59,381 nucleotides of DNA, from positions 1-59,381 of IMG/VR virus record IMGVR_UViG_3300037603_000091. One strand, given 5' to 3'. The notes under the pieces were generated by a model. The model saw only the letters and a program-made list of their open reading frames with translations. It was not told the origin of the DNA and did no database searches. This stretch comes from a virus. Taxonomy: Duplodnaviria; Caudoviricetes. The translations under genes and the position numbers were made by a program. This document shows positions 1 to 59,381 of this stretch, one piece after another (position 1 is the stretch's first letter; each line of letters starts with the position of its first letter).

Positions 1-127
1 TGCCGAGCACGCCGAACTCGCGAGCACCATAGTCCGTCACGCGCTCCACAACTGGACCGTCGAAGGTCTGAATGGTGCGATCGTATCCATATGACCACAC
101 TGGCTCGATGCCAGATGAGACGTTGTC
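1..127. repeat. 127-bp terminal overlap, identical to 59255..59381 (circular assembly)
   Basis: Exact match of window start and end; 127 is a common assembler k-mer; the RNR frame continues across the junction. Confidence 0.95.
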
Positions 128-49735: not shown

Positions 49736-49929
49736 AGCTTCTTCTCCCTTGCGAGCCAGTCCGGAACCTCGACAGTGACAATGTCACCCACCTTGTATCC
49801 GGGCTGAATCTCTATCTCTGACATTGGCAGCCACTCGCCGACGCACTTGTCGCCGTCGTTCACCTTGATTGCCAGCTCCGAGCAGACCTCTATCTCAACG
49901 TCATACTCTTGCAAGCTGAGTGCCTCCAT
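49729..49929 (-). CDS. Hypothetical protein (start MEALSL)
   Basis: WLPMSEI...VEVPDWLAREK. Confidence 0.65.
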   Translation of the reverse strand: MEALSLQEYDVEIEVCSELAIKVNDGDKCVGEWLPMSEIEIQPGYKVGDIVTVEVPDWLAREKKLC

Positions 49930-50482
49930 TTGTCTCGCGGTAGGCCACAATCTCCACGCCAGCCTCCTGATACATGTCCAGACCGTTCTGACAGGAGCGC
50001 TTCCAGCGCTCGCTGAAGCCAGCCTCCTCTAGATGCACATAGACGACCCGCTTTATCCCAGCCTGTATGACATGTGCCGTGCAGCGGGCACAACTTGGTC
50101 CATGTCCTGGTGGCCAAGTGTACATAGTGTATCCACGGACGGGCTCCACAGCAGAGAGGATGGCATTGAGCTCTGCATGTACCACGCGCTCGAGCTTCAA
50201 CTCCCGATCATCATACTTCTCCTGGGCATCTGAACACCCACGGGGGAAGCCATTGTATCCAACCGATGCGATTGTGAGGTCAGGTCGGACTATGGCAGCC
50301 CCACACTTCGTGCTGGGATCCTTGGACCAGCCTGCAACCATGGCTGCGAGCCCAAGGAAGCGACGGTCCCACTTGTCTTGTCTGAGAACACGCTGAGCCT
50401 GCTGATAGGTCTGGCCACGAATATAGCCCTCGTTCTCCTGCCAGCGGCGGACGATGTCTTCTGCTTCTGAAACCTTCATCAC
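49901..50482 (-). CDS. dCMP deaminase
   Basis: SKDPSTKCGA, GYNGFPRG, HAELNA, SCARC. Confidence 0.92.
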   Translation of the reverse strand: MMKVSEAEDIVRRWQENEGYIRGQTYQQAQRVLRQDKWDRRFLGLAAMVAGWSKDPSTKCGAAIVRPDLTIASVGYNGFPRGCSDAQEKYDDRELKLERVVHAELNAILSAVEPVRGYTMYTWPPGHGPSCARCTAHVIQAGIKRVVYVHLEEAGFSERWKRSCQNGLDMYQEAGVEIVAYRETNGGTQLARV

Positions 50483-50737: not shown

Positions 50738-52660
50738 CTATGACACATCGCCCCAGTTGGGGCCAAGCTCCACGTCAACCTTGCTCGGAACGTTCAGGTC
50801 AACGCATGTCTTCATGATCTCAGCTGCACCCTCGGCGTATGCTCGGTCTGGCACGGAGAAGTCGAACTCGTCGTGCACCTGCAGCTGAAGTGGGTATCCT
50901 GCCCGGTCTAGGTCGACCATGGCTGTCTTTGTCTGGTCTCCGGCCCCGCCCTGGATGAGGCGGTTGAGAGCCTTGTTTGTCCAGTCCCAGTTGAGGCCGT
51001 CCTTGGCCCGAGGGAATCGACACTTGCGCCCGGAGAGGGTGCGGATGAAACCGTTCTTGCGGGCTCGCTTGTCACACCATGTCTGGAGTGCTGCGACCAT
51101 GGGCACGCGCTTGTGGAAGCGGTTGAAGAGCTGCTTGCCCTCGTCTCCGGCCACGCGCATCATTCGGCCCTTGTACTCTATGACCTTCGTTGGCAGGCCC
51201 AGGTCGTTGCACAGCTTGACCTCTCCCATGTTGTAGCAGAGCCCAAGGAAGATGATCTTGCATTGACCGCGCTTGAACTTCCAGTCCTTGGGATCGGTCT
51301 CCTCCTTCTTCAGGCCGAAGACCATCTCCGTCATCATGTCGTGGTTGTCCATGTCGGGGTCGTCGCGGTACTTCTGCGCGGCCTCCTCGCCACCCGGAAC
51401 GCCCACCACCTCGGCACAGTGTGCCAGTAGACGTGGCTCCTGCTGCGAGTAGTCCAGACACGCCCACTGGGCACCGTCATCTGGCACGTACACCCTGCGC
51501 CACATGGTTCCCACCTCGGGATCCCGTGCTGGCTGCTGCTGCATGTTTGGATCCTGCGAGCTGAGGCGACCGTATGCCGCCCCGCGCAGGTTCTTGCCGT
51601 CATCGTCGGAGCGACGCAGCTGGTTGAAGGAGCAGTGCACTCGACCGTTGACCTGATAGTCCTTGACCTGCTGAACGAAGGTGCTCACCATCTTGTTGTG
51701 CTTGCGGCCCTGACTGATCATTGGGATCATCGGGTGCTTGTCCGCGTTGCCACGAAGCCAGTCCGCGTCGAGGGACTCGGACATTGAGAATGGGATGCCG
51801 ACCTCGTTCAGGATGCGAACCAGGAGCTCCTTCTTGTCAAAGTCGCCGGGTGTGAAGCCAATCGTTGTGAGATTGTCGATGAAGTCTGCAGCCTCCGCCC
51901 GCTTGCCCGAGCAGTATGTCTCAACGTGCATGAGCTGGTCGAAGTCGACCTTCACGCCGCGACGACGCATCTTGACCAGCACGGGCTGCACGGCACACTC
52001 CAGATCATAGACCTTGCGCAGGTCCTGCTTGTCTATCTCAGCCTCCTGCGCCCTGATGAGCTGCAGTGGCGCGGTGGCATCGCGCTCGGCGTATGGGCCC
52101 ACGTAGCGGCCAGGAAGGTCGGAGATCCAGGCGCCAACCTGGTTGTCCTTCTTCATGCCGTATGCCTTGGCTGCCTCGATCATGCCCTGGTCGTCCTTGA
52201 GATCGAAGCCCCAGTCCTTCAGAATGCTGTTTAGAGAGTAGCTGAACTTCAGCTCGTTCAGGAGTGGCTCGGCCACCTGAGTGTCGCGGAATGTGACGTC
52301 CGGGTGGAACTCAAGTCCCCACTCCATTAGATAGTCGATGTCGTACTGAAGGTTTGCCCCGGTGATCTCACCACGGAAGCGCTTCAACTGGGCCTGCATG
52401 TAGCGCCTGACCTGGTCCGGATCGAGGTTGTCCTCGGGATGCCCAAAGGGGAGATACCAGCCGCGCTCGGTCGTCGTTGCGAAGGAGATGCCGACCATGC
52501 GACCCTCTCGCCTGACACCTGGACCCAGCTCCCTGAGAGTCGGGTCGCTTGTCTCGGTGTCCAGAGAGATGAGCCCCCTCTCGCCCCAATCGGGCAGAGC
52601 TGACATGTCTGGCAGCTTCCAGTTGGAGTCCGGGGCAAGAAGGGGAAGTTGTATTGGCAC
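50738..52660 (-). CDS. polA: DNA polymerase family A with 3'-5' exonuclease
   Basis: LDTET, NLQYD, YAERD, GRLSSQDPN.QQ.P, DYSQQEPR, QVHDE. Confidence 0.95.
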   Translation of the reverse strand: MPIQLPLLAPDSNWKLPDMSALPDWGERGLISLDTETSDPTLRELGPGVRREGRMVGISFATTTERGWYLPFGHPEDNLDPDQVRRYMQAQLKRFRGEITGANLQYDIDYLMEWGLEFHPDVTFRDTQVAEPLLNELKFSYSLNSILKDWGFDLKDDQGMIEAAKAYGMKKDNQVGAWISDLPGRYVGPYAERDATAPLQLIRAQEAEIDKQDLRKVYDLECAVQPVLVKMRRRGVKVDFDQLMHVETYCSGKRAEAADFIDNLTTIGFTPGDFDKKELLVRILNEVGIPFSMSESLDADWLRGNADKHPMIPMISQGRKHNKMVSTFVQQVKDYQVNGRVHCSFNQLRRSDDDGKNLRGAAYGRLSSQDPNMQQQPARDPEVGTMWRRVYVPDDGAQWACLDYSQQEPRLLAHCAEVVGVPGGEEAAQKYRDDPDMDNHDMMTEMVFGLKKEETDPKDWKFKRGQCKIIFLGLCYNMGEVKLCNDLGLPTKVIEYKGRMMRVAGDEGKQLFNRFHKRVPMVAALQTWCDKRARKNGFIRTLSGRKCRFPRAKDGLNWDWTNKALNRLIQGGAGDQTKTAMVDLDRAGYPLQLQVHDEFDFSVPDRAYAEGAAEIMKTCVDLNVPSKVDVELGPNWGDVS

Positions 52661-53124
52661 TAGAAGCCTCGATCAATCATGGTGTCCAACTTCTCAAGGG
52701 CGGCCTGCAACTGCTCCTGCCGCACGCCGCAGACAATCAGTGAGATGATCTCAGCCTCTTCTGATGGAATGCGATTGCCCGAGCTGAACTCGTGCGGAGC
52801 CACCATGATCTCAGCGTCATTGGAGAAGTGCCCTGCCTGATAGCCCTCCATGAGCTTGATGACGTAGTGTCGAGCCTTCTTCAGGTCCTCGACGCCATTC
52901 TTCTTGCGCCATCGCGTTATGTACTTCGTGGCATTGCCAATGAGGTATCCCGGTCCGAAGTTGTAGGAGATGAAGTCCCAGTGCTGGATCCCATCCTTTG
53001 GATAGTGGTCGCCTCCGACCTGCATGTCATTTGCTTGTGTCATTCTTCTATAGTCCCTGCATATTTTGCAACCAAGGGGGTCAGGCACGAGCCCGCACAC
53101 CCAGCACACGTCACTTGTGCTCAC
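52660..53124 (-). CDS. DUF3310/SaV-like (T7 gp1.7-like) putative nucleotide kinase
   Basis: QVGGDHY, GNATKYITRWRKKNGVEDLKKARHY. Confidence 0.8.
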   Translation of the reverse strand: MSTSDVCWVCGLVPDPLGCKICRDYRRMTQANDMQVGGDHYPKDGIQHWDFISYNFGPGYLIGNATKYITRWRKKNGVEDLKKARHYVIKLMEGYQAGHFSNDAEIMVAPHEFSSGNRIPSEEAEIISLIVCGVRQEQLQAALEKLDTMIDRGF

Positions 53125-53560
53125 TCTCTGTCACCTCCGACCAGTGAACGCGACCCTCGGGCGTGTGATAGTACCACTCCCGCACCTTGGGCCCCATGAG
53201 GCAGAGCGACCACATGCCACCCTTCGAGACCTCGAGGATGCGGTGAGCGTCCCAGTCGCAGCCTCTCATGTAGTTCCAGAAGCGGCGCTTGATCTTGAAG
53301 TCCTTTCGAGTAATGTCGGCCTCGGAATGCTTGATGATCCGCCGCTCCACGTACCAGCCCTTCAAGAAGATCGAGAGAAACGCGCTGGTGTGGTCGTGGG
53401 GATGGCCCACGTCAGCCTGCTTGATGTGATTGAGCGACAGGGCGAACCAAGGTGTCTTGAAGATGAACAGTCGGTTCAGATACGGCTCCTGGGCATCCGA
53501 CCAGCGCCAGAAGCACCACCGGATCCCAGTGCCCGACTTGTATACCCTACTTCGAAACAT
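53111..53560 (-). CDS. Cupin-like protein, paralogue of 42514..43005
   Basis: PYLNR, HPHDH...GWYVE, AHRI, W.Y. Confidence 0.65.
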   Translation of the reverse strand: MFRSRVYKSGTGIRWCFWRWSDAQEPYLNRLFIFKTPWFALSLNHIKQADVGHPHDHTSAFLSIFLKGWYVERRIIKHSEADITRKDFKIKRRFWNYMRGCDWDAHRILEVSKGGMWSLCLMGPKVREWYYHTPEGRVHWSEVTESEHK

Positions 53561-54104
53561 TGTGGTCCCTCCCCATGATGGCCTTCCACCAGCCCGTGGT
53601 TTCTGAGACCTCGAACTTGTGAGCAGCGATGAACAGCTTGAGCTCCTCCGGAAGAGGCATCTCCTGGAGCTGCTCGATGCAGCTCTTCATGGTTGGACGC
53701 ACCAGCTGATTGCCCATCTGGAGCTGCTCGTGTGTCCACATGAGGCACTCCAGCACGTCGCACGCTGCCAGCCACTGACGCTCCTCCTCGCTCAAGGGGA
53801 TGCGGATGCCGAGCTCGTCCTCGATCATGCGCTCCGTCATCTTGAGCTCCCTGCCGAGCTCCGGATTAAGCCAGTACTTGGCAGGTGCAGGCGTGTCACC
53901 GACCCACCGCTCGGGCACGTCGTGCCAGAGGGCAGCCATGATGAGGTTGTTCGATGCGTTGGGGCACAGCAGAGCTATGAGCGATGCAACCGCCCAGGAG
54001 TGCTTCGCGACGGAGTACTCTCCGTGGTGGGGAACGCAGTGCATCCGCTCGGTCCACCCTCCCTCTCTGATTGCCAGAACGACCTGGCTCGGTGTCTTAT
54101 CCAT
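53547..54104 (-). CDS. HD-domain 5'-deoxynucleotidase (YfbR-like), start MDKTPS
   Basis: SVAKHS, ALWHDVPE..VGD.PAPAK, ACDVLE. Confidence 0.85.
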   Translation of the reverse strand: MDKTPSQVVLAIREGGWTERMHCVPHHGEYSVAKHSWAVASLIALLCPNASNNLIMAALWHDVPERWVGDTPAPAKYWLNPELGRELKMTERMIEDELGIRIPLSEEERQWLAACDVLECLMWTHEQLQMGNQLVRPTMKSCIEQLQEMPLPEELKLFIAAHKFEVSETTGWWKAIMGRDHNVSK

Positions 54105-55170
54105 TCTTGCTTCTCCAGCGTCTGTGTCTCTGTTCAATCCAGTCCCGTGCTGCAAACTTCCAGTCGCAGTTGTCTGGCATCTGGTCCAGTATCTCGAGCG
54201 CGCCTAGGAAGCGGTCCTCACCCTCGCCCTTCTTGTAGTGTCGATGAGCCATCCACATCGGGACGGCACACTTGCGCCAGAAGGGGTGAACGAAGCCCAC
54301 CGCGCTGGGATCCTCGAAGAAGAGGGCCATGTCCTGGTCCCACAGCTTGGGATCTCGACGTGCCGAGAACAGCCTCGTGGGCTTGACGAGCCCATCCCTG
54401 TAGGGGCATGCATTATCGATGGCGAACTCGTCCATCTCGCGGATGCCAGCACACTTGTCGTATGTGTCATCGTACGCGTGATAGTTCGTGCTGACCTGCC
54501 AGTAGCGTCCGATGGGGACCTCCACCATGCCGGCCACGTACTCCTGGAGGATGGACATGTGCACGGCGTTGGCGCCATAGGCACCCCAGACGATGTCATT
54601 GGAGCGGTTGAAGACGTACATGTTGAGCGCGCCGTCCGACCCGATCTCGAACTTCAGGGACAGGTTGCACGGAACGTCCTTGCCGCCACTGTCTGCAACA
54701 AGTTGATCAATCGGCCCAGCCCACATGTTGATGACAACCCGGCGATCAGTCTTGTCCTTCTTGAGGCGGTCAATCGCCCAGGATAGCTGGTCCCATGATT
54801 CGTACTGATGATCGCTGTTGCCTCTGCTGGGATGTTCGAAGAACGAGCGCCAGCGCCATCCATATGCACCCCACATGGTCTTGCCATCATCGGAGTAGCT
54901 GCGCATGTTCTTGGCAAAGCTCTCCACGAACTTCAGGTCATTGCGACCTGCGAGCATCCAGATGGACTCGAACAGGTGAAAGAATGGGTTGGCGTCCCGT
55001 TCTCGATAGAAGATGACCCTCTCGTCAGGCCGCTCGTAGAGAGTTGTGACGGGCTCGGGGTGCACGTGCACGGAGCCGTTGCGGGAGGGGCGCTTTTCTC
55101 CCTCGTCTCGAAGGAGCTGGAGTCCTCGAGGAAGAGCTTCTTGCACGTTCCTGACGCGTAGGGTCTTCAT
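54097..55170 (-). CDS. Thymidylate-synthase-fold dUMP hydroxymethylase (start MKTLRV)
   Basis: ANPFFHLFE..WML.GRND, GAYG.RW, KDVPCN, RSNDIVWGAYGANAVH (Asn implies dUMP specificity), NYHAY. Confidence 0.85.
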   Translation of the reverse strand: MKTLRVRNVQEALPRGLQLLRDEGEKRPSRNGSVHVHPEPVTTLYERPDERVIFYRERDANPFFHLFESIWMLAGRNDLKFVESFAKNMRSYSDDGKTMWGAYGWRWRSFFEHPSRGNSDHQYESWDQLSWAIDRLKKDKTDRRVVINMWAGPIDQLVADSGGKDVPCNLSLKFEIGSDGALNMYVFNRSNDIVWGAYGANAVHMSILQEYVAGMVEVPIGRYWQVSTNYHAYDDTYDKCAGIREMDEFAIDNACPYRDGLVKPTRLFSARRDPKLWDQDMALFFEDPSAVGFVHPFWRKCAVPMWMAHRHYKKGEGEDRFLGALEILDQMPDNCDWKFAARDWIEQRHRRWRSKNG

Positions 55171-56021
55171 GTCTCTGCGTCCTCTACTGGAGGATCCTGT
55201 GGGAGCTCCTCTTCGGGCGGGATGGAGGATGCAAATGCCTTCTTCCAGTAGACAGTCACCTCCGTGCGGGTGCCGAAGCCCTCGCGGTCTGTCTTGTTCT
55301 GCTTCTGGCGTGTGCGCACGAACCCAGGGTGAAGCTCTGCGAGCTTCTCGGCACCTGCGTTGTGAACCTGGTGTGTTCGCCACACGGAGCAGCCCCCGTC
55401 GGCCTGTGTCTTGCTCTGCCCCTGGGCGAACCTGTAGAAGACGAGTGACGGGAGGCCAGCACGCAGCATCTGGAGCGCGACGTCGAAGTCCTCCATGATG
55501 TGCACACGACCACCCTCTGTGGCGAGATAGTCCGCAGTGCGATAGGCGAGAAGTCTCATGTAGCGGGTGTTCTCAACCTCTCCCTCGCGCGTCCGGTTGT
55601 TGCCCTCGCGCCCCGAAACACCCACGTGAGCGTACTGGTGAAGTGCTCTAGAGATAGAAGCAAACATCTCATAGATGTCTTCCGGACCAGGAGCAGTCAG
55701 CTTCCACCACTCATCGTGATCAGCTTCCTGGTCGCGGCGAATGTAGAACTCGATGTCATCATCCAGCATGCAGAACTTCTCAACGCCGACCATGTCACAT
55801 GCCTCAGCGATGTGGCGGCGAGTTGGCTCGATGCGAGTGATGCTCTTTGGCAGCACCATGAGCTCCACGTCTGGTGTGTTCAGAAGCGCAGCGCGGTACG
55901 CGCTTGCCTCGTGTGCCTGACAGACCACGGTTGTGTTTGAGTGAAGAGATGTTGGCAGCTTGCCAAGCGTTCCCTGATGTATGCGGTCTGCACGACCAAG
56001 GGATGGGATGAATAGGCGCAT
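55167..56021 (-). CDS. GT-A glycosyltransferase, TAGT/JGT/GREB1-like
   Basis: IPSLGRA, TR.HI, MLDDD, EDFDVALQ.LRAG, GGCS.WRT, V.WKKA. Confidence 0.8.
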   Translation of the reverse strand: MRLFIPSLGRADRIHQGTLGKLPTSLHSNTTVVCQAHEASAYRAALLNTPDVELMVLPKSITRIEPTRRHIAEACDMVGVEKFCMLDDDIEFYIRRDQEADHDEWWKLTAPGPEDIYEMFASISRALHQYAHVGVSGREGNNRTREGEVENTRYMRLLAYRTADYLATEGGRVHIMEDFDVALQMLRAGLPSLVFYRFAQGQSKTQADGGCSVWRTHQVHNAGAEKLAELHPGFVRTRQKQNKTDREGFGTRTEVTVYWKKAFASSIPPEEELPQDPPVEDAET

Positions 56022-56043
56022 GTGTCCTCCGTTTCTAGGGGCG

Positions 56044-56072
56044 ACCCTAGCGCCCCTCGTTCCAGTTGTAAA
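56044..56072 (-). promoter_or_regulatory. Putative promoter TTTACA-N17-TAGGGT for glycosyltransferase operon; -10 flanked by 7-bp inverted repeat
   Basis: aggggcg accctag cgcccct at 56037..56057. Confidence 0.55.
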
Positions 56073-56075
56073 GTG

Positions 56076-56267
56076 CTAGCTGCTCTTGGCCATGGCAGCA
56101 CCAGCCACCACCGCGCTGAAGACAAGCACGAGAGCGCTGGGCACTGCGACACCGAGCCACACTCCAATTGGGATCTGCCCAAGAGCGGCGCTCTCTGTCA
56201 GCTGGGCCAGCCACTCATCGTAGGAGTACCACATTAGTAGAAGTCCGGATGTGATGTTCTTGATCAT
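56076..56267 (-). CDS. Small membrane protein
   Basis: ATGA-coupled, hydrophobic C-terminus. Confidence 0.55.
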   Translation of the reverse strand: MIKNITSGLLLMWYSYDEWLAQLTESAALGQIPIGVWLGVAVPSALVLVFSAVVAGAAMAKSS

Positions 56268-57199
56268 GTTCTATACCTGTTCTTCAGTCTACCGCCCTGC
56301 TGGGCGCGCTCATACTTGTCGAACTCACACAGCGTGTGCTCGACGGTTCTCATGTCCCATGGCTTGGACTTCCAGGGCCAGTTTGCCGTGTCCTGTGACA
56401 ACTCAAGCAGGCGCTGCATCAGGAACATCATGTCGTCCCGGTCCTCGGCGCTGTGGCGCTTGAAGAAGTCCTTGTCATAGTCGCAGAGGCGAGAGAGCCC
56501 ACGGGCACATCCCGGTCCTGGGTTGGCCCAGGTCATGATGTCCGGAGCCTTGTCAAGCAGCGGCGTGTGATAGAGGTCGGTGACGATCTCGTATGCCATG
56601 AACTGCCCGAGGAAGGGGAACGATTGGAGCCAGTTCCAAACTTGTTCTAGCCTCAAAGTTCCAGATTGAATCTTCATGAGATTGGAAAATTCTCGTGCAT
56701 CAAATTTCGGATGGTGTCCATACTTGCGATAAGTTTCATCGTGCAAAAGCTCACCGTCTTTGGTGCGGAACCACTCGATGCACTGAAGCACACCGTCCAG
56801 CTTGTTCATTCCGTTGGGCGTCTTGATGATGTAGGCACCTGTGACAACAGGCGCAACTCCAGCAAGCTGTAGTCCAACTTCAAGAGATGACCACTCTCGC
56901 TCTCCGAGGAGCCACGGCAGGATCCTCTCTCCCGTCTCGACGCGGTTGAACCACCTGAAAGCCACAGTGGCAAAGAGCTGCTGGGCAGGATCCTCATCCA
57001 GTTTCGATCTAACGTTCTCTGCAAACCAGCGCGTGACTCGGTCGTCTTCTCTCTCGACATTGCAGAACCTCCAGTTCTGTAGCACAGGGTCAGCGGTGTA
57101 CTGTCCCGATGGCACGCCGGAGCGAGGGATGCCCATGTCTTTTGCAAGACGGACCTTCTCCCGCTCCCGCGCATATGCGAAGAAGTCGTCGCTACGCAT
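56264..57199 (-). CDS. aGPT-Pplase1 / 5-hmdU DNA kinase helical-domain protein (start MRSDDF)
   Basis: DPVL..WRFCNV.REDDRVT, FRWFN..ET, GAYII, G.FMAYEIVTDL, GPG..RGL, EHTLCEFDKY.R. Confidence 0.85.
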   Translation of the reverse strand: MRSDDFFAYAREREKVRLAKDMGIPRSGVPSGQYTADPVLQNWRFCNVEREDDRVTRWFAENVRSKLDEDPAQQLFATVAFRWFNRVETGERILPWLLGEREWSSLEVGLQLAGVAPVVTGAYIIKTPNGMNKLDGVLQCIEWFRTKDGELLHDETYRKYGHHPKFDAREFSNLMKIQSGTLRLEQVWNWLQSFPFLGQFMAYEIVTDLYHTPLLDKAPDIMTWANPGPGCARGLSRLCDYDKDFFKRHSAEDRDDMMFLMQRLLELSQDTANWPWKSKPWDMRTVEHTLCEFDKYERAQQGGRLKNRYRT

Positions 57200-57611
57200 C
57201 TGGTGCAGTGACCTCGATGTAGCCACGCTCAGAGTCCCAGCGGATGTCGGCCAGTGTGCCTCCCATCTCGCGGAACTTGCCAACAGTACCACAGGTGCGA
57301 TACAGCTCGTAGTGAGCACGGGCCGTGGACCCATGGCGCTTGGGATTCTCCAACTCAACCAGGTAGATGCGACTGTCCGGATGAATTGAGGACTTGCGGC
57401 CAGCGCCAGTGTTGCGAGGACGGGGCTCCTCGATTGGCGGGGCGATCTGTTCCAGGATCGGCACGATGCGCTTGATGGCAGTCGCCTTGTCGCTGAACTT
57501 CTTGAGCGATTCACCAGTCACATCATTGTAGAGCTCGACCAGCTCAGGCCCGCTCAGGCCCTCAAGGTCTTCTTCAGACGTGATCATGGTGTCTTTGAAT
57601 TGGTACTTCAT
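57192..57611 (-). CDS. Hypothetical putative DNA-binding protein (NPK..GS...ADIRWD..RG domain)
   Basis: Strong RBS and promoter; first gene of modification operon. Confidence 0.75.
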   Translation of the reverse strand: MKYQFKDTMITSEEDLEGLSGPELVELYNDVTGESLKKFSDKATAIKRIVPILEQIAPPIEEPRPRNTGAGRKSSIHPDSRIYLVELENPKRHGSTARAHYELYRTCGTVGKFREMGGTLADIRWDSERGYIEVTAPDA

Positions 57612-57639: not shown

Positions 57640-57672
57640 TCAATACCTCAGGATGTTGCAGAAGTAAACCCC
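57640..57672 (-). promoter_or_regulatory. Putative promoter GGGG-TTTACT-N17-TATTGA
   Basis: Repeated family; twin of 46388..46420. Confidence 0.55.
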
Positions 57673-58148
57673 ACTGGCGAATATTTTTCCAAAACCTCTC
57701 TAAAGTACTCCCGAGCCCTGGCCCTGTTCTCATCGCAGTTCCAGAACCTGTTGCACCCGGAGGTGTGGGGAACCACGGTGCATGTGAAGCCCCAATCAGA
57801 GTTGTTGCGGTGCTCGAAGAAGTCCATCGTTGCCTTGGGATATCCGAACGCCACAGCAGTGTTGCGTCCCAGGAATATCACGTGTCGACCACCAAAGTGC
57901 TGGCGGTGAACCGCAGCTGCCTCCCGAGCCTTCTTCATTGGGAACTTGTCACCCTTGATGTTCTTGTCAGATCCAGGATAGAACGGAAGACAGTTCACTC
58001 TGTCAAATGCTGAGAGATACGTCTCCGGTGATATTCCGATGAGCTTGACGAGGCGATCGCCCGAGCTGTGCTCTGGCAGGGGATGAAGAGGCTCCCTAGG
58101 ATTTGTCTTTCTTCCTGGAGCCATCCCCACGAGAATTGGTCTCTTCAT
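57648..58148 (-). CDS. Uracil-DNA glycosylase superfamily protein
   Basis: ILVGMAPG, SGDRL, RVN, VIFLG, PHTSGCNRFWN. Confidence 0.7.
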   Translation of the reverse strand: MKRPILVGMAPGRKTNPREPLHPLPEHSSGDRLVKLIGISPETYLSAFDRVNCLPFYPGSDKNIKGDKFPMKKAREAAAVHRQHFGGRHVIFLGRNTAVAFGYPKATMDFFEHRNNSDWGFTCTVVPHTSGCNRFWNCDENRARAREYFREVLEKYSPVGFTSATS

Positions 58149-58962
58149 AAACTTCTCTCCCTTTCTTCTCCCACCATCTCTTGAACCCTGACACCTGTTG
58201 AGCAGTTATCCCATACTCTTCAGCCAGGTCAACTCCACGCTCGCCCGAGAGGCGACGCTTGGCTATCTCAATCTGCTTCTCAAGAGGCACGCCACTCCGG
58301 CCCCTCGTGGACCTGCCACGGCGCACCATGTCCATGCTGTTCTCAGCATGTGTTCCTGTCTCAAGATGCTCGGGGTTCACACATCCAGGATTGTCGCACT
58401 TGTGTCGCACAACATGTCCATCGGGGATGTCCCCGCCGTGTATGCGCCAGCTGATTCTATGCGCTTGATGACAGGTTCCATTGATGTACATGACACCATA
58501 GCCACCAGCGTTCTTGGTTCCACCCCACTCCCAACAACCGCTGTCAGGATTAGAGTGCAGGGGAGTTGAGTACCACATCTCCAACTCGTTGGGAAGAATG
58601 CCAATCTCATTGGCTGCCCTGAGAAGGTCCAGTCGCACGGCATTCTTGTCGCTCGGACAGACCCTGTCATCAATCAGCATGTCATGAAGCTGAGCGTCCA
58701 GAATTATGGAAGCAGTTGCTATTATGTGCGCAAAGTGAGACAGTCCTGACTCAACATCATGATCTTGTCCGTTTTCCAGAGCAATTAGATGCCTGTAGAT
58801 TGCTCCAATGTATCCAGTGAGAGATATGGGCTTCTCCCGCCAGTTCATTGGACCATACTTCATGGCACCAAGGCGACAGGCCATGGCTGCCTCAACCATG
58901 CCTGTCTTTGGCAGGAGATGCATCGGAACTCTGTTCAGAGCCGCCCTGTCCTTGGGGTTCAT
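58096..58962 (-). CDS. dATP/dGTP diphosphohydrolase-like domain (DUF5664) fused to HNH endonuclease and HTH
   Basis: GAMKYG..NWR, RHL...GQD.D.ESGLSH.AH; then CWEW.G...GYG, AHRISW, RHKCDNPGCVNPEHL..GT..EN..D. Confidence 0.85.
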   Translation of the reverse strand: MNPKDRAALNRVPMHLLPKTGMVEAAMACRLGAMKYGPMNWREKPISLTGYIGAIYRHLIALENGQDHDVESGLSHFAHIIATASIILDAQLHDMLIDDRVCPSDKNAVRLDLLRAANEIGILPNELEMWYSTPLHSNPDSGCWEWGGTKNAGGYGVMYINGTCHQAHRISWRIHGGDIPDGHVVRHKCDNPGCVNPEHLETGTHAENSMDMVRRGRSTRGRSGVPLEKQIEIAKRRLSGERGVDLAEEYGITAQQVSGFKRWWEKKGREVYEETNSRGDGSRKKDKS

Positions 58963-59381
58963 GAGCACTCCTTCTGTCCAGTATCAGGATCGATGTAGCA
59001 GGCAGCGCCCTCCTCGACCTCCGGGCCATTGCTGCCCTCGTCGGTTCCGAGAATGCCGAAGCGCTTTCCGCCTGCGTTGAATGTTGTGCAGCCCTTGGCA
59101 CCGCCCTCCCATGCCTTGACATAGATGGCCTTGAAATCCTCCCATGCCATGTTCGGAGACACGTTGCAGGTCTTGGACACAGCTGAGTCAACAAGGCGAG
59201 CGCATGCTGCCAGAACTGTCACATGCTCCTCCGCTGTGACCTCCTCCGCGCGCTTGCCGAGCACGCCGAACTCGCGAGCACCATAGTCCGTCACGCGCTC
59301 CACAACTGGACCGTCGAAGGTCTGAATGGTGCGATCGTATCCATATGACCACACTGGCTCGATGCCAGATGAGACGTTGTC
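58959..59381 (-). CDS. nrdJ: Class II ribonucleotide reductase, C-terminal part (joined to 1..1420)
   Basis: VSSGIEP, VDSAVSKTCN, AKGCTTF, C-terminal CYIDPDTGQKECS. Confidence 0.9.
   Translation of the reverse strand, partial: DNVSSGIEPVWSYGYDRTIQTFDGPVVERVTDYGAREFGVLGKRAEEVTAEEHVTVLAACARLVDSAVSKTCNVSPNMAWEDFKAIYVKAWEGGAKGCTTFNAGGKRFGILGTDEGSNGPEVEEGAACYIDPDTGQKECS
59255..59381. repeat. Duplicate of 1..127 (assembly overlap)
   Basis: Exact identity. Confidence 0.95.

What the first reader, a model, noticed from the sequence alone, without database searches (positions are those of the whole stretch)
52660..57611. Thymine-hypermodification operon with a glycosyltransferase in place of the amino-acid transferase: candidate new sugar-modified base
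Seen: a contiguous gene run encodes an aGPT-Pplase1/5-hmdU-kinase helical protein, a TAGT-type GT-A glycosyltransferase ATGA-coupled to a dUMP hydroxymethylase, an HD nucleotidase, a cupin, DUF3310 and then Pol A, with dCMP deaminase nearby. Known: M6/YuA, ViI and phiW-14 incorporate hmdU, phosphorylate it in DNA and then transfer amino acids or amines using aGPT-Pplase2 (with PLP or radical-SAM enzymes in some). The trypanosome base J glucosyltransferase belongs to the TAGT family. I see no aGPT-Pplase2, stand-alone P-loop kinase, PLP or radical-SAM gene in this complete genome. Inference: the DNA carries glycosyl-hmU (base J-like, made without TET/JBP), or a glycosylated phosphomethyl-dU, or two parallel marks.
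Basis: partly seen in the sequence, partly recalled or inferred. Interest (0 to 1): 0.9.

Follow-up and report, generated by a model that had tools for sequence, protein, structure and literature searches.

The report
Kinase-free sugar-on-hydroxymethyluracil phage DNA operon
This complete pond phage genome carries a tight operon that most likely swaps thymine for hydroxymethyluracil and then hangs a sugar on it, a widespread but chemically untested way of disguising phage DNA.

Summary
On the minus strand lie an HMUDK_hel (old aGPT-Pplase1) protein, a TAGT GT-A glycosyltransferase ATGA-coupled to a thymidylate-synthase-like enzyme with the uracil-type Asn, an HD nucleotidase, DUF3310, Pol A and dCMP deaminase. 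The record is a complete genome. Six-frame HMM searches find no amino acid:DNA transferase, P-loop hmU kinase, radical SAM, PALP or TET/JBP gene.

The reading is partly supported. Glycosyl-hmU is the best reading (about 0.55). The "glycosylated phosphomethyl-dU" option has no basis: the "kinase helical" protein has no P-loop. It is a paralogue of the amino acid:DNA transferases and keeps their Cys and metal-binding Glu.

The operon is not unique. 74 of 80 IMG/VR loci holding a relative of this GT carry the same HEL-GT-TS triad. So do the cultured phages PhiJL001 and LuckyBarnes. 0 of 35 long records have the kinase or the transferase. Three GT relatives sit beside Tet_JBP instead, and lack both HEL and TS.

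HEL follows the hydroxymethylase. It has three mutually exclusive neighbours: kinase, GT, or a SAM methyltransferase-like gene. Its reaction is unknown.

This scan noted the same kinase-free module earlier in at least six other genomes. My paper searches found no measurement of the product.

The parts
57192..57611 (-). 139-aa first gene of the run, function unknown; overlaps the start of the next gene by 8 bases
   Evidence: No Pfam hit. Local blastp: 39.7% over 136 aa to PhiJL001 gp18, 37.7% over 122 aa in L006, 39% over 59 aa to the M6 gp49 region; hits in 15 of 86 related loci.
56264..57199 (-). HMUDK_hel / former aGPT-Pplase1 protein (311 aa): helix-hairpin-helix glycosylase-like fold, paralogue of amino acid:DNA transferases, not a kinase
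   Evidence: PF18723 E 8e-37. AF2 pLDDT 92.3. VIA Z 10.7, rmsd 3.8, 221 aligned to 8z2n PaMx11 gp46. No Walker A. 2578 homologues, the 120 listed all single-domain.
56324..56344 (-). Motif V-E-H-T-L-C-E (residues 286-292) holding the candidate nucleophile Cys291 and metal-binding Glu287
   Evidence: C291 and E292 invariant, E287 and H288 at 90% or more, in 40 sequences. Local hhalign puts it on the E-T-x-x-C motif of M6 gp51 (E 0.033). In PaMx11 gp46, Glu243/Thr244 bind the metal and Cys247 is the nucleophile (PMC11472151 passages).
56076..56267 (-). 63-aa hydrophobic ORF, ATGA-coupled to the gene before it
   Evidence: Sequence read. No homologue in 86 related loci. No Pfam or PHROG hit.
55167..56021 (-). 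TAGT-family GT-A glycosyltransferase (284 aa), predicted DNA hydroxymethyluracil glycosyltransferase
   Evidence: PF20691 E 1.1e-29. phrog_842 E 1.5e-48. AF2 pLDDT 92.5. Foldseek E 6e-6 and weaker to GT-A enzymes. D87-D88-D89, D178 and D180 invariant in 40 sequences. 57.6% identical to PhiJL001 gp22.
54097..55170 (-). Thymidylate-synthase-family enzyme (357 aa), predicted dUMP hydroxymethylase
   Evidence: PF00303 E 4.1e-18. Asn201 aligns with the pyrimidine-specifying Asn of thymidylate synthase, where CMP hydroxymethylase MilA has Asp. P-C-N catalytic Cys168. 50.3% identity over 338 aa to M6 gp58 and 56.4% to PhiJL001 gp24.
53547..54155 (-). HD-domain YfbR-like 5'-deoxynucleotidase, probable pool-clearing enzyme
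   Evidence: PF12917 E 6.7e-12. Homologues in M6, Ab18 and PhiJL001, and in 43 of 86 loci.
53111..53560 (-). Cupin-like accessory gene, not part of the conserved module
   Evidence: phrog_4786 E 1.8e-22. No Pfam hit. Atlas neighbours are viral 'cysteine dioxygenase family' clusters. 0 of 86 related loci have a homologue.
52660..53124 (-). DUF3310 protein
   Evidence: PF11753 E 6e-14. Homologues in PhiJL001, M6 and Ab18.
50738..52660 (-). Family A DNA polymerase
   Evidence: PF00476 E 9.9e-49.
49901..50482 (-). dCMP deaminase, supplies dUMP
   Evidence: PF00383 E 4e-15.
57648..58148 (-). Weak UDG-superfamily protein conserved in M6-type phages
   Evidence: PF03167 E 0.0015, below the cut-off. 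phrog_12275 E 4e-43. 50% identical to a PhiJL001 ORF and 45% to M6 gp48. M6 gp48 gives the same weak UDG hit.
58096..58968 (-). dATP/dGTP-diphosphohydrolase-type N-terminal domain fused to an HNH endonuclease
   Evidence: PF18909 E 3.6e-23 and PF13392 E 3.5e-15. PhiJL001 matches only 121 aa of it.

Best explanation
This is a kinase-free thymine-replacement and glycosylation operon.

Before replication (inferred from the families): dCMP deaminase makes dUMP. The thymidylate-synthase-like enzyme makes 5-hydroxymethyl-dUMP. Host kinases raise it to the triphosphate. The HD nucleotidase and the pyrophosphohydrolase-type domains thin out competing nucleotides. The phage Pol A then builds hmU-DNA.

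After replication (inferred): the TAGT GT-A enzyme takes a host NDP-sugar and puts the sugar on the 5-hydroxymethyl group of hmU in DNA. The genome holds no sugar-nucleotide genes. The product is a base-J-like glycosyl-hmU that shields the DNA from host nucleases.

The HMUDK_hel protein is not a kinase. It is a paralogue of the amino acid:DNA transferases and keeps their Cys/Glu site. It very probably acts on 5-substituted uracil in hmU-DNA. It goes with the hydroxymethylase route rather than with the sugar step, and its own reaction is not known.
For: Families and coupling:
- Gene families, the ATGA coupling and the complete genome are shown.
- The TS-like enzyme has the uracil-type Asn. It is 50% identical to the M6 enzyme. 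M6 modifications are built on 5-hmdU (PMC8989533 passages).
- The GT has a GT-A fold with an invariant D-D-D. The preprint 10.1101/2023.12.21.572611 (passages) treats phage GT-A enzymes of this kind as DNA glycosyltransferases and finds a trypanosome JGT homologue as their structural match. I did not test whether its enzymes are of this window's family.

Conservation:
- 74 of 80 IMG/VR loci holding a relative of this GT carry HEL, GT and TS together, nearly always in the order HEL-GT-TS. In 3 more the contig ends at the GT.
- In 35 records (34 of 30 kb or more, plus the best hit): HMUDK_hel 35 of 35, TS 35 of 35, P-loop kinase 0 of 35, ADDT 0 of 35. M6 and Ab18 served as positive controls.
- The remaining 3 GT relatives lie beside Tet_JBP (E 1e-26 to 3e-29) and have no TS and no C5-methyltransferase. 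So this GT clade follows whichever gene supplies a hydroxymethyl group on DNA.
- The cultured phages PhiJL001 and LuckyBarnes have the triad and lack the kinase.

HEL as a transferase paralogue.
Against: - No chemistry was measured. The product, the sugar and the fraction of T replaced are all inferred.
- Hydroxymethylase versus ordinary thymidylate synthase rests on orthology and context, not on a diagnostic residue.
- The strict presence of a Cys/Glu transferase-like enzyme next to the GT leaves open that the sugar base is an intermediate and not the end product.
- The acceptor of this GT clade has not been assayed by anyone, as far as my searches show.
- The three Tet_JBP-linked records are fragments (11-52% complete), so their lack of a C5-methyltransferase is weak evidence.
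Confidence: 0.55

Rival explanations
1. The sugar is an activating group, not the final mark. The GT does the job the kinase does in M6. The Cys/Glu HMUDK_hel enzyme then attacks C6, expels the O-substituent and lets another nucleophile add. The mature base is then a non-sugar thymine derivative, or a mixture.
For: - HEL keeps the nucleophile Cys and the metal-binding Glu of the transferases.
- HEL is next to the GT in 74 of 80 loci.
- Kinase and GT never co-occur: 0 of 80 HEL loci, as expected if they are alternative activators.
Against: - A glycoside is a far poorer leaving group than phosphate (general chemistry, my own knowledge).
- HEL also stands beside the complete kinase plus ADDT set, where M6 gp55 was not needed for glycine transfer in lysates (PMC8989533).
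- A third class of HEL loci has a methyltransferase-like neighbour instead. Its product would be a worse leaving group still.
- GT relatives beside Tet_JBP lack HEL.
Confidence: 0.1
2. HMUDK_hel is a non-catalytic or base-flipping partner that binds the GT and presents hmU to it. In other phages it would do the same for the kinase or the methyltransferase.
For: - Its three mutually exclusive neighbours are all enzymes that would derivatise the hydroxyl.
- Gene pairs are adjacent and often overlapping.
- Complex prediction gave weak support: score 0.42 (runs 0.42, 0.51, 0.23), best control 0.00. That mark was reached by 58 of 80 solved complexes and 2 of 110 mismatched pairs. At 0.60 or under it was reached by only 7 of those 80, and by both mismatches that passed. 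The runs agree in at least 92% of contacts, and the partner's pLDDT is at least 87.
Against: - Such a weak pass is more often wrong than right.
- Invariant Cys/Glu argues for catalysis.
- GT relatives beside Tet_JBP do without HEL: 3 of 3.
- The M6 kinase and transferase work without gp55 in lysates.
- HEL sequences of GT-type and kinase-type phages are intermixed near the window's protein.
Confidence: 0.2
3. The thymidylate-synthase-like enzyme is an ordinary dTMP synthase or a dCMP hydroxymethylase. The DNA then carries T or glycosyl-hmC, as in T-even phages.
For: - The nearest solved relatives by sequence are CMP hydroxymethylases (E 1e-17).
- PHROG names the family only 'thymidylate synthase'.
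Against: - Asn, not Asp, stands at the pyrimidine-specifying position.
- It is 50% identical to the enzyme of M6, whose marks derive from 5-hmdU.
- dCMP deaminase is present.
- In 34 of 80 related loci the same enzyme sits beside an hmU-specific kinase family.
Confidence: 0.07
4. The glycosyltransferase acts on something other than DNA (host envelope, a protein or a small molecule), and the DNA carries plain hmU.
For: GT-A folds serve many acceptors; the structural neighbours include TarP, GnT-I and a nucleoside glycosyltransferase.
Against: - Translational coupling to the hydroxymethylase.
- The triad in 74 of 80 loci.
- The switch to Tet_JBP neighbours in the other informative loci.
- The Pfam family is named for its link with DNA-base dioxygenases.
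Confidence: 0.06

Closest known systems
Thymidine hypermodification clusters of Pseudomonas phages M6/YuA and PaMx11/Ab18 (Mesyanzhinovviridae)
   Same: The replication-module synteny is the same: RNR, weak UDG-like gene, HMUDK_hel, TS-like hydroxymethylase (48-50% identical), HD nucleotidase, DUF3310, Pol A, dCMP deaminase. The logic is also the same: hmdU is incorporated first and DNA is modified afterwards.
   Different: No P-loop 5-hmdU DNA kinase, no amino acid:DNA transferase, and no PLP, radical SAM or FAD tailoring enzymes. A TAGT glycosyltransferase is present instead. No Nmad5.
Alphaproteobacteria phage PhiJL001 gp19-gp24 (Keylargovirus), the nearest cultured relative
   Same: HMUDK_hel, TAGT GT (57.6% identical) and TS-like enzyme (56.4%) lie in the same order. 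Like the window, it has no kinase and no ADDT over the cut-off.
   Different: PhiJL001 has an Nmad5 gene between GT and TS and no cupin-like gene. Its DNA product is not reported in any paper I could search. The 2005 genome paper is not held.
T-even phage glucosyl-hydroxymethylcytosine system
   Same: A TS-family hydroxymethylase makes the hydroxymethyl nucleotide before replication, and a phage glycosyltransferase sugars it in DNA. The window's GT falls in the PHROG named for the T2/T6 beta-glucosyl-HMC-alpha-glucosyltransferase and matches about 480 T-even-type records at about 25% identity.
   Different: The base is uracil, not cytosine (Asn). The T-even relative of this GT adds a second sugar onto a sugar (recalled, not tested). 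The T-even system has no HMUDK_hel partner.
Base J of trypanosomatids (JBP hydroxylase plus JGT glucosyltransferase)
   Same: The predicted product class is the same: sugar on 5-hydroxymethyluracil in DNA. Phage GT-A enzymes were matched structurally to a T. cruzi JGT homologue (bioRxiv 10.1101/2023.12.21.572611 passages).
   Different: Here the hydroxymethyl group comes from a nucleotide-level TS-like enzyme, not from oxidation of T in DNA. There is no Tet_JBP gene. The sugar is unknown.
Phage 5mYOX/TET plus GT-A hypermodification pathways (Burke 2021; Pyle 2023/2024; T-dioxygenase work 2026)
   Same: Same GT family. Three relatives of this GT at about 41% identity lie beside Tet_JBP genes. 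That work already tallied GT-A enzymes beside ThyS in metagenomes.
   Different: Those characterised pathways start from 5mC or T oxidised in DNA. None of the passages I read mentions the clade-1 protein ('aGPT' occurs 0 times) or a product for the ThyS-linked class.

Membership tests
TAGT (PF20691) DNA glycosyltransferases | Match to the family HMM above the curated cut-off | tested here: met
   104.3 bits against a cut-off of 27.5, E 1.1e-29, covering profile positions 1-205 of 205.
TAGT (PF20691) DNA glycosyltransferases | GT-A fold with an acidic D-x-D-type metal and nucleotide-sugar site | tested here: met
   AF2 model pLDDT 92.5. Foldseek E 6e-6 to 1e-4 to many GT-A enzymes. D87-D88-D89 invariant in 40 sequences.
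TAGT (PF20691) DNA glycosyltransferases | Neighbourhood with a gene that makes a hydroxymethylpyrimidine (TET/JBP or a TS-like hydroxymethylase) | tested here: met
   TS-like gene ATGA-coupled. No Tet_JBP in this genome. 3 relatives lie beside Tet_JBP.
TAGT (PF20691) DNA glycosyltransferases | Sugar transfer to hydroxymethyl bases in DNA | not testable with these tools
   Needs an enzyme assay or nucleoside mass spectrometry.
HMUDK_hel / aGPT-Pplase clade 1 (PF18723) | Match to the family HMM above the cut-off | tested here: met
   127.6 bits against a cut-off of 25. Six-frame 126.5 bits.
5-hmdU DNA kinase (PF18748, M6 gp54 type) | P-loop kinase domain with a Walker A motif | tested here: not met
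   No PF18748 match at E <= 1 anywhere in the genome. M6 control 1.1e-19. No Walker A in 56264-57199.
Amino acid:DNA transferase (ADDT, PF18724, old aGPT-Pplase2) | Match to the family HMM | tested here: not met
   No match at E <= 1 in the genome. M6 control 2.3e-48. The PhiJL001 clade-1 protein gives a sub-threshold hit (14.1 bits, E 7.8e-4) on profile positions 131-227.
Amino acid:DNA transferase (ADDT, PF18724, old aGPT-Pplase2) | Fold of PaMx11 gp46/PUGT | tested here: inconclusive
   Best VIA match: Z 10.7, rmsd 3.8, 221 residues aligned. But for helical proteins a Z under about 13 can be a common arrangement, and Foldseek E was 0.3.
Amino acid:DNA transferase (ADDT, PF18724, old aGPT-Pplase2) | Nucleophile Cys with a metal-binding Glu four residues before it | tested here: met
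   C291 invariant and E287 at 90% or more in 40 clade-1 sequences. They align with E-T-x-x-C of M6 gp51 by local hhalign, E 0.033. Residue roles come from PMC11472151 passages.
Thymidylate synthase family, dUMP hydroxymethylase type | Family HMM, catalytic Cys, and Asn that selects uracil | tested here: met
   PF00303 65.9 bits. P-C-N with Cys168 and Asn201.
Thymidylate synthase family, dUMP hydroxymethylase type | Product is 5-hydroxymethyl-dUMP, not dTMP | not testable with these tools
   Inferred from 50% identity to M6 gp58 and from kinase or GT neighbours in relatives.
M6/ViI-type thymidine hypermodification pathway | hmU kinase plus amino acid:DNA transferase acting in turn | tested here: not met
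   Both are absent here and in 35 of 35 related records.

The most novel reading that the evidence does not exclude
The invariant Cys/Glu protein misnamed a 'kinase helical domain' is a DNA-base enzyme in its own right. It works on hmU that carries any of three O-substituents: phosphate, sugar or methyl. In this phage the sugar put on by the GT would then be a handle or leaving group for a second reaction. The mature base would be a thymine derivative of a kind not yet described, made without ATP activation.
Probability: 0.12. Interest if true: 0.9.

Novelty: new variant of a known kind. Interest (0 to 1): 0.62.

Why it matters
Sugar on hydroxymethyluracil is known as base J in trypanosomes, where thymine is oxidised in DNA. 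Sugar on hydroxymethylcytosine is known from T-even phages.

A phage route that joins the two is predicted by this operon and by hundreds of related contigs: the nucleotide-level hydroxymethylase of the first kind of system and a DNA glycosyltransferase of the second, with no kinase. My searches found no measurement of its product.

It can be tested at once, because PhiJL001 and LuckyBarnes are cultured.

The module also frames an open question. The clade-1 'aGPT-Pplase' is present in every class of thymine-hypermodifying siphovirus examined here. It keeps the catalytic residues of the transferases, yet it has no assigned reaction.

Such bases matter for phage escape from restriction and CRISPR, and as enzymatic tools for labelling hmU in DNA.

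Tried and rejected
- A profile of the clade-1 alignment against all PDB sequences found nothing at E <= 10.
- Foldseek on the clade-1 model gave no match at E <= 0.001. The fold claim therefore rests on the VIA second look.
- hhalign of the clade-1 profile against single M6 gp51 was weak (probability 0.3). The global mode against an 8-sequence ADDT alignment gave a meaningless alignment. Only the local mode (E 0.033, 42 columns) placed the Cys motifs together.
- I considered that HEL might turn leftover hmU into thymine, as I recall for PhiW-14. I dropped the idea. No Delftia phage is among the 95 phage records that match this protein, and no call bears on it.
- Read-level evidence for modification was not obtainable. 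The 20 listed runs (17 with all sampled words, all labelled pond metagenome, possibly one campaign or the source itself) are held as contigs only, so I did not use read laying.
- The search of this scan's notes by GT sequence found nothing.
- Paper search was badly framed (39,708 papers) and gave nothing.
- Iyer et al. 2013 and Lohr et al. 2005 are not held. Whether they already predicted glycosyl-hmU for PhiJL001 is unchecked; what I say of Iyer 2013 comes from citations in PMC8989533 and from recall.
- PMC3070671 holds none of my terms, and PMC5889632 gave nothing on this question.
- Supplements were not opened. Table S4 of the GT preprint (NCBI viral genomes with GT-A homologues) and the supplementary figures of PMC8989533 on M6 gp55 may bear on novelty.
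- Rows left out: for the whole-record census I used 35 of the 80 GT loci (all 34 on contigs of 30 kb or more, plus L006). HEL ORFs under 200 aa were dropped from the tree. Several contigs appear in both locus sets, so the 158 tree rows hold duplicates.

Full report
**What the record is.** The window is a whole IMG/VR virus record of 59,381 bases with a 127-base direct terminal repeat. CheckV estimates it at 100% complete. The ribonucleotide reductase gene runs across the contig ends, so the ends are an assembly cut of a circular or permuted map. The nearest named phage is Alphaproteobacteria phage PhiJL001 (Keylargovirus, Mesyanzhinovviridae). Only protein-level similarity is left: its GT is 57.6% identical. 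The tail genes are of the gene-transfer-agent type seen in PhiJL001 relatives.

**The observation.**
- HMUDK_hel (PF18723, E 8e-37) at 56264-57199.
- TAGT glycosyltransferase (PF20691, E 1.1e-29) at 55167-56021.
- A thymidylate-synthase-family gene at 54097-55170, whose ATG overlaps the GT stop as ATGA.
- A YfbR-like HD nucleotidase and DUF3310.
- Pol A and dCMP deaminase.

A second ATGA couples HMUDK_hel to a 63-aa hydrophobic ORF. The 'cupin' has no Pfam match and rests on a PHROG named cysteine dioxygenase and on like-named Atlas clusters. It has no homologue in 86 related loci, so it is an accessory gene and not part of the module.

**The absences.** Six-frame HMM searches of the whole record at E <= 1 find none of these: the amino acid:DNA transferase family (ADDT, PF18724, the old aGPT-Pplase2), the P-loop 5-hmdU DNA kinase (PF18748), Nmad5, Tet_JBP, radical SAM, PALP. 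The ADDT and kinase searches ring in phage M6 (2.3e-48 and 1.1e-19). In Ab18 ADDT rings at 3.5e-28, and the kinase only at 3.9e-4, below the cut-off. Pfam scans of 60 further ORFs show helicases, primase, a T4-endoV-like glycosylase, a MazG-like domain and virion proteins. They show no kinase, PLP enzyme, sugar-nucleotide enzyme or second GT. Walker-A-like motifs occur only in terL, the Dda-like helicase and an antisense ORF over the reductase gene.

**What the hydroxymethylase is.** In the alignment to a solved thymidylate synthase, the window's enzyme has Asn (residue 201) where thymidylate synthase has the Asn that reads the pyrimidine. CMP hydroxymethylase MilA has Asp there. The catalytic P-C-N is present. 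The enzyme is 50.3% identical over 338 residues to M6 gp58, 56.4% to PhiJL001 gp24 and 48-50% to the Ab18, Pam3 and RHph_I65 enzymes. All of those stand in hmU-kinase clusters. That it makes 5-hm-dUMP rather than dTMP is inferred from this orthology and context. I did not test it.

**What the glycosyltransferase is.** The AF2 model is confident (pLDDT 92.5). It matches GT-A enzymes at Foldseek E 6e-6 to 1e-4. D87-D88-D89, D178 and D180 are invariant in 40 homologues. It also falls in the PHROG named for the T2/T6 beta-glucosyl-HMC-alpha-glucosyltransferase. The sugar donor cannot be read from sequence. No sugar-nucleotide gene is present, so a common host NDP-sugar is expected.

**What the 'kinase helical' protein is.** In M6 the kinase is gp54, a separate P-loop protein. 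The HMUDK_hel homologue is gp55. Lee et al. (PMC8989533, passages read) report that lysates with gp54 and gp51 alone sufficed for glycine transfer when gp52, gp53 and gp55 were left out.
- The window's protein has no Walker A motif.
- Its AF2 model (pLDDT 92.3) is a helix-hairpin-helix glycosylase-like fold.
- The best VIA match is the PaMx11 gp46 glycinyltransferase (Z 10.7, rmsd 3.8, 221 residues). Queuine-salvage Qng1 and Ogg/MutY glycosylases follow.
- Foldseek alone was weak (E 0.17-0.7). For helical proteins such Z values can arise by chance, so the fold match alone is inconclusive.
- Sequence adds to it. In 40 homologues C291 and E292 are invariant, and E287 and H288 are conserved at 90% or more.
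- The local profile-profile alignment lays E287-H-T-L-C291 on the E-T-x-x-C of the transferases (E 0.033).
- The ADDT model gives a sub-threshold hit on the C-terminal half of the PhiJL001 clade-1 protein.
- In PaMx11 gp46, Glu243 and Thr244 hold the metal and Cys247 attacks C6 of the base (PMC11472151, passages).

So this protein is best read as an active paralogue of the transferases and not as part of a kinase.

**How common the module is.**
- A scan of IMG/VR with the GT alignment matched 305 stretches. 238 of them encode relatives, and the best 80 were kept.
- With local HMMs, 74 of the 80 loci hold HEL, GT and TS together, nearly always in that order. Three have the GT at a contig edge, and three have the GT alone.
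- Whole-record searches of 35 of the 80 (the 34 on contigs of 30 kb or more, plus the best hit) give HMUDK_hel 35/35, TS 35/35, kinase 0/35 and ADDT 0/35. Among the 13 records at least 90% complete the figures are 13, 13, 0 and 0.
- The three GT-alone records each carry a Tet_JBP gene close to the GT (E 1e-26 to 3e-29). They have no TS and no C5-methyltransferase, though they are fragments.
- Brevibacterium phage LuckyBarnes has TS, two TAGT genes and HMUDK_hel in a row, and no kinase or ADDT.
- Genes that sit between HEL and GT in relatives include dUTPase/dCTP-deaminase-like genes (19 loci), HD nucleotidase (5), an endoV-like glycosylase (6) and an FkbM-type methyltransferase (3).

**What HEL goes with.** A second scan, with the HEL alignment, kept 80 loci. 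Within 8 kb of HEL:
- 34 have the kinase; 16 of these also have ADDT.
- 13 have a TAGT GT.
- 33 have neither.
- None has both kinase and GT.
- 78 have the TS-like gene.
- In 28 of the 33 with neither, a class-I SAM methyltransferase-like gene lies directly upstream of HEL. It is found in no locus of the other classes.

On a FastTree tree of 158 HEL rows (duplicates included), the partner class changes at least 16 times, against 56-69 in 200 label shuffles. The rows nearest the window's protein are of both the kinase and the GT type. Kin share labels, so this shows repeated cassette exchange and nothing more. HEL thus follows the nucleotide-level hydroxymethylase, not the kind of group added. 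GT relatives fed by Tet_JBP do without it.

A complex prediction of GT with HEL gave weak support only. The score was 0.42 with a best control of 0.00. That mark was reached by 58 of 80 solved complexes and 2 of 110 mismatches. At 0.60 or under it was reached by only 7 of those 80, and by both mismatches that passed. Contact agreement was at least 92% and the partner's pLDDT at least 87.

**Mechanism.**
- Shown: the gene families, their coupling, the absence of the kinase route, and the comparative pattern.
- Inferred: hmdU replaces dT before replication. The GT then sugars hmU in DNA, giving a base-J-like mark. I put this at about 0.55.
- HEL's reaction is open. My odds are about 0.2 that it is a presenting partner of the GT and about 0.1 that it displaces the sugar. 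The rest goes to an independent reaction on hmU-DNA that I cannot name.

**Comparison and novelty.** The system works like the T-even glucosyl-hmC pathway transposed to uracil, and would end in the product class of base J. By its defining steps (kinase, transferase) it is not a member of the M6/ViI pathway.

The GT-A/ThyS association was tallied in metagenomes by Pyle et al. (preprint passages). GTs beside phage T-dioxygenases are noted in PMC13229309 (passages). None of my eight paper searches found a measured product for the ThyS-linked class or a function for the clade-1 protein. Iyer et al. 2013 and Lohr et al. 2005 could not be read.

This scan had already noted the same kinase-free module in at least six other genomes. 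Those are AI notes. I reached the same reading before seeing them and tested it here independently.

I class the finding as a new variant of a known kind: real, widespread, testable in cultured phages, and not unique to this window.

Noticed in passing
L134:7114-7974 and 27 further loci of L092-L171: A third class of HMUDK_hel loci has neither kinase nor TAGT. Instead a class-I SAM methyltransferase-like gene (Methyltransf_23/11) lies directly upstream of HEL and the TS-like gene. This might give an O-methylated hmU.
   Followed up: partly
L039:7883-8581, also L020 and L043: An FkbM-type methyltransferase sits between HEL and the GT in 3 relatives, hinting at a methylated sugar on the base in those phages.
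   Followed up: no
L061, L066, L069: Relatives of this GT at about 41% identity lie beside a Tet_JBP dioxygenase. They have no TS, HEL or C5-methyltransferase in the record. So the same GT clade serves both the oxidative and the nucleotide-level route.
   Followed up: partly
window 56076-56267 (minus): A 63-aa hydrophobic ORF is ATGA-coupled to HMUDK_hel. It has no homologue in 86 related loci and no family match.
   Followed up: partly
window 58096-58968 (minus): A dATP/dGTP-diphosphohydrolase-type N-domain is fused in one frame to an HNH endonuclease with an HTH. PhiJL001 matches only 121 residues of it, so the HNH part looks like a later insertion or fusion.
   Followed up: no
window 1-127 and 59255-59381; reductase gene across the ends: The 127-base terminal repeat cuts through the ribonucleotide reductase gene, so the contig ends are an assembly artefact of a circular or permuted genome and not true genome ends.
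   Followed up: partly
window, one ORF of alignment A1 (coordinates not resolved); also L009:8273-8827 and L134:6638-7138: A T4-endoV-like pyrimidine-dimer glycosylase (Pyr_excise) is encoded in this genome. In relatives it often sits inside the modification operon.
   Followed up: no
L003:2768-4321 (LuckyBarnes gp41): The TS-like enzyme of LuckyBarnes is 517 aa, with a long C-terminal extension of unknown function, and is followed by two tandem TAGT genes.
   Followed up: no
window 52660-57611: The stretch is held in full by 17 runs labelled pond metagenome (2019-2020, possibly one campaign or the source itself). All are kept as contigs only.
   Followed up: no
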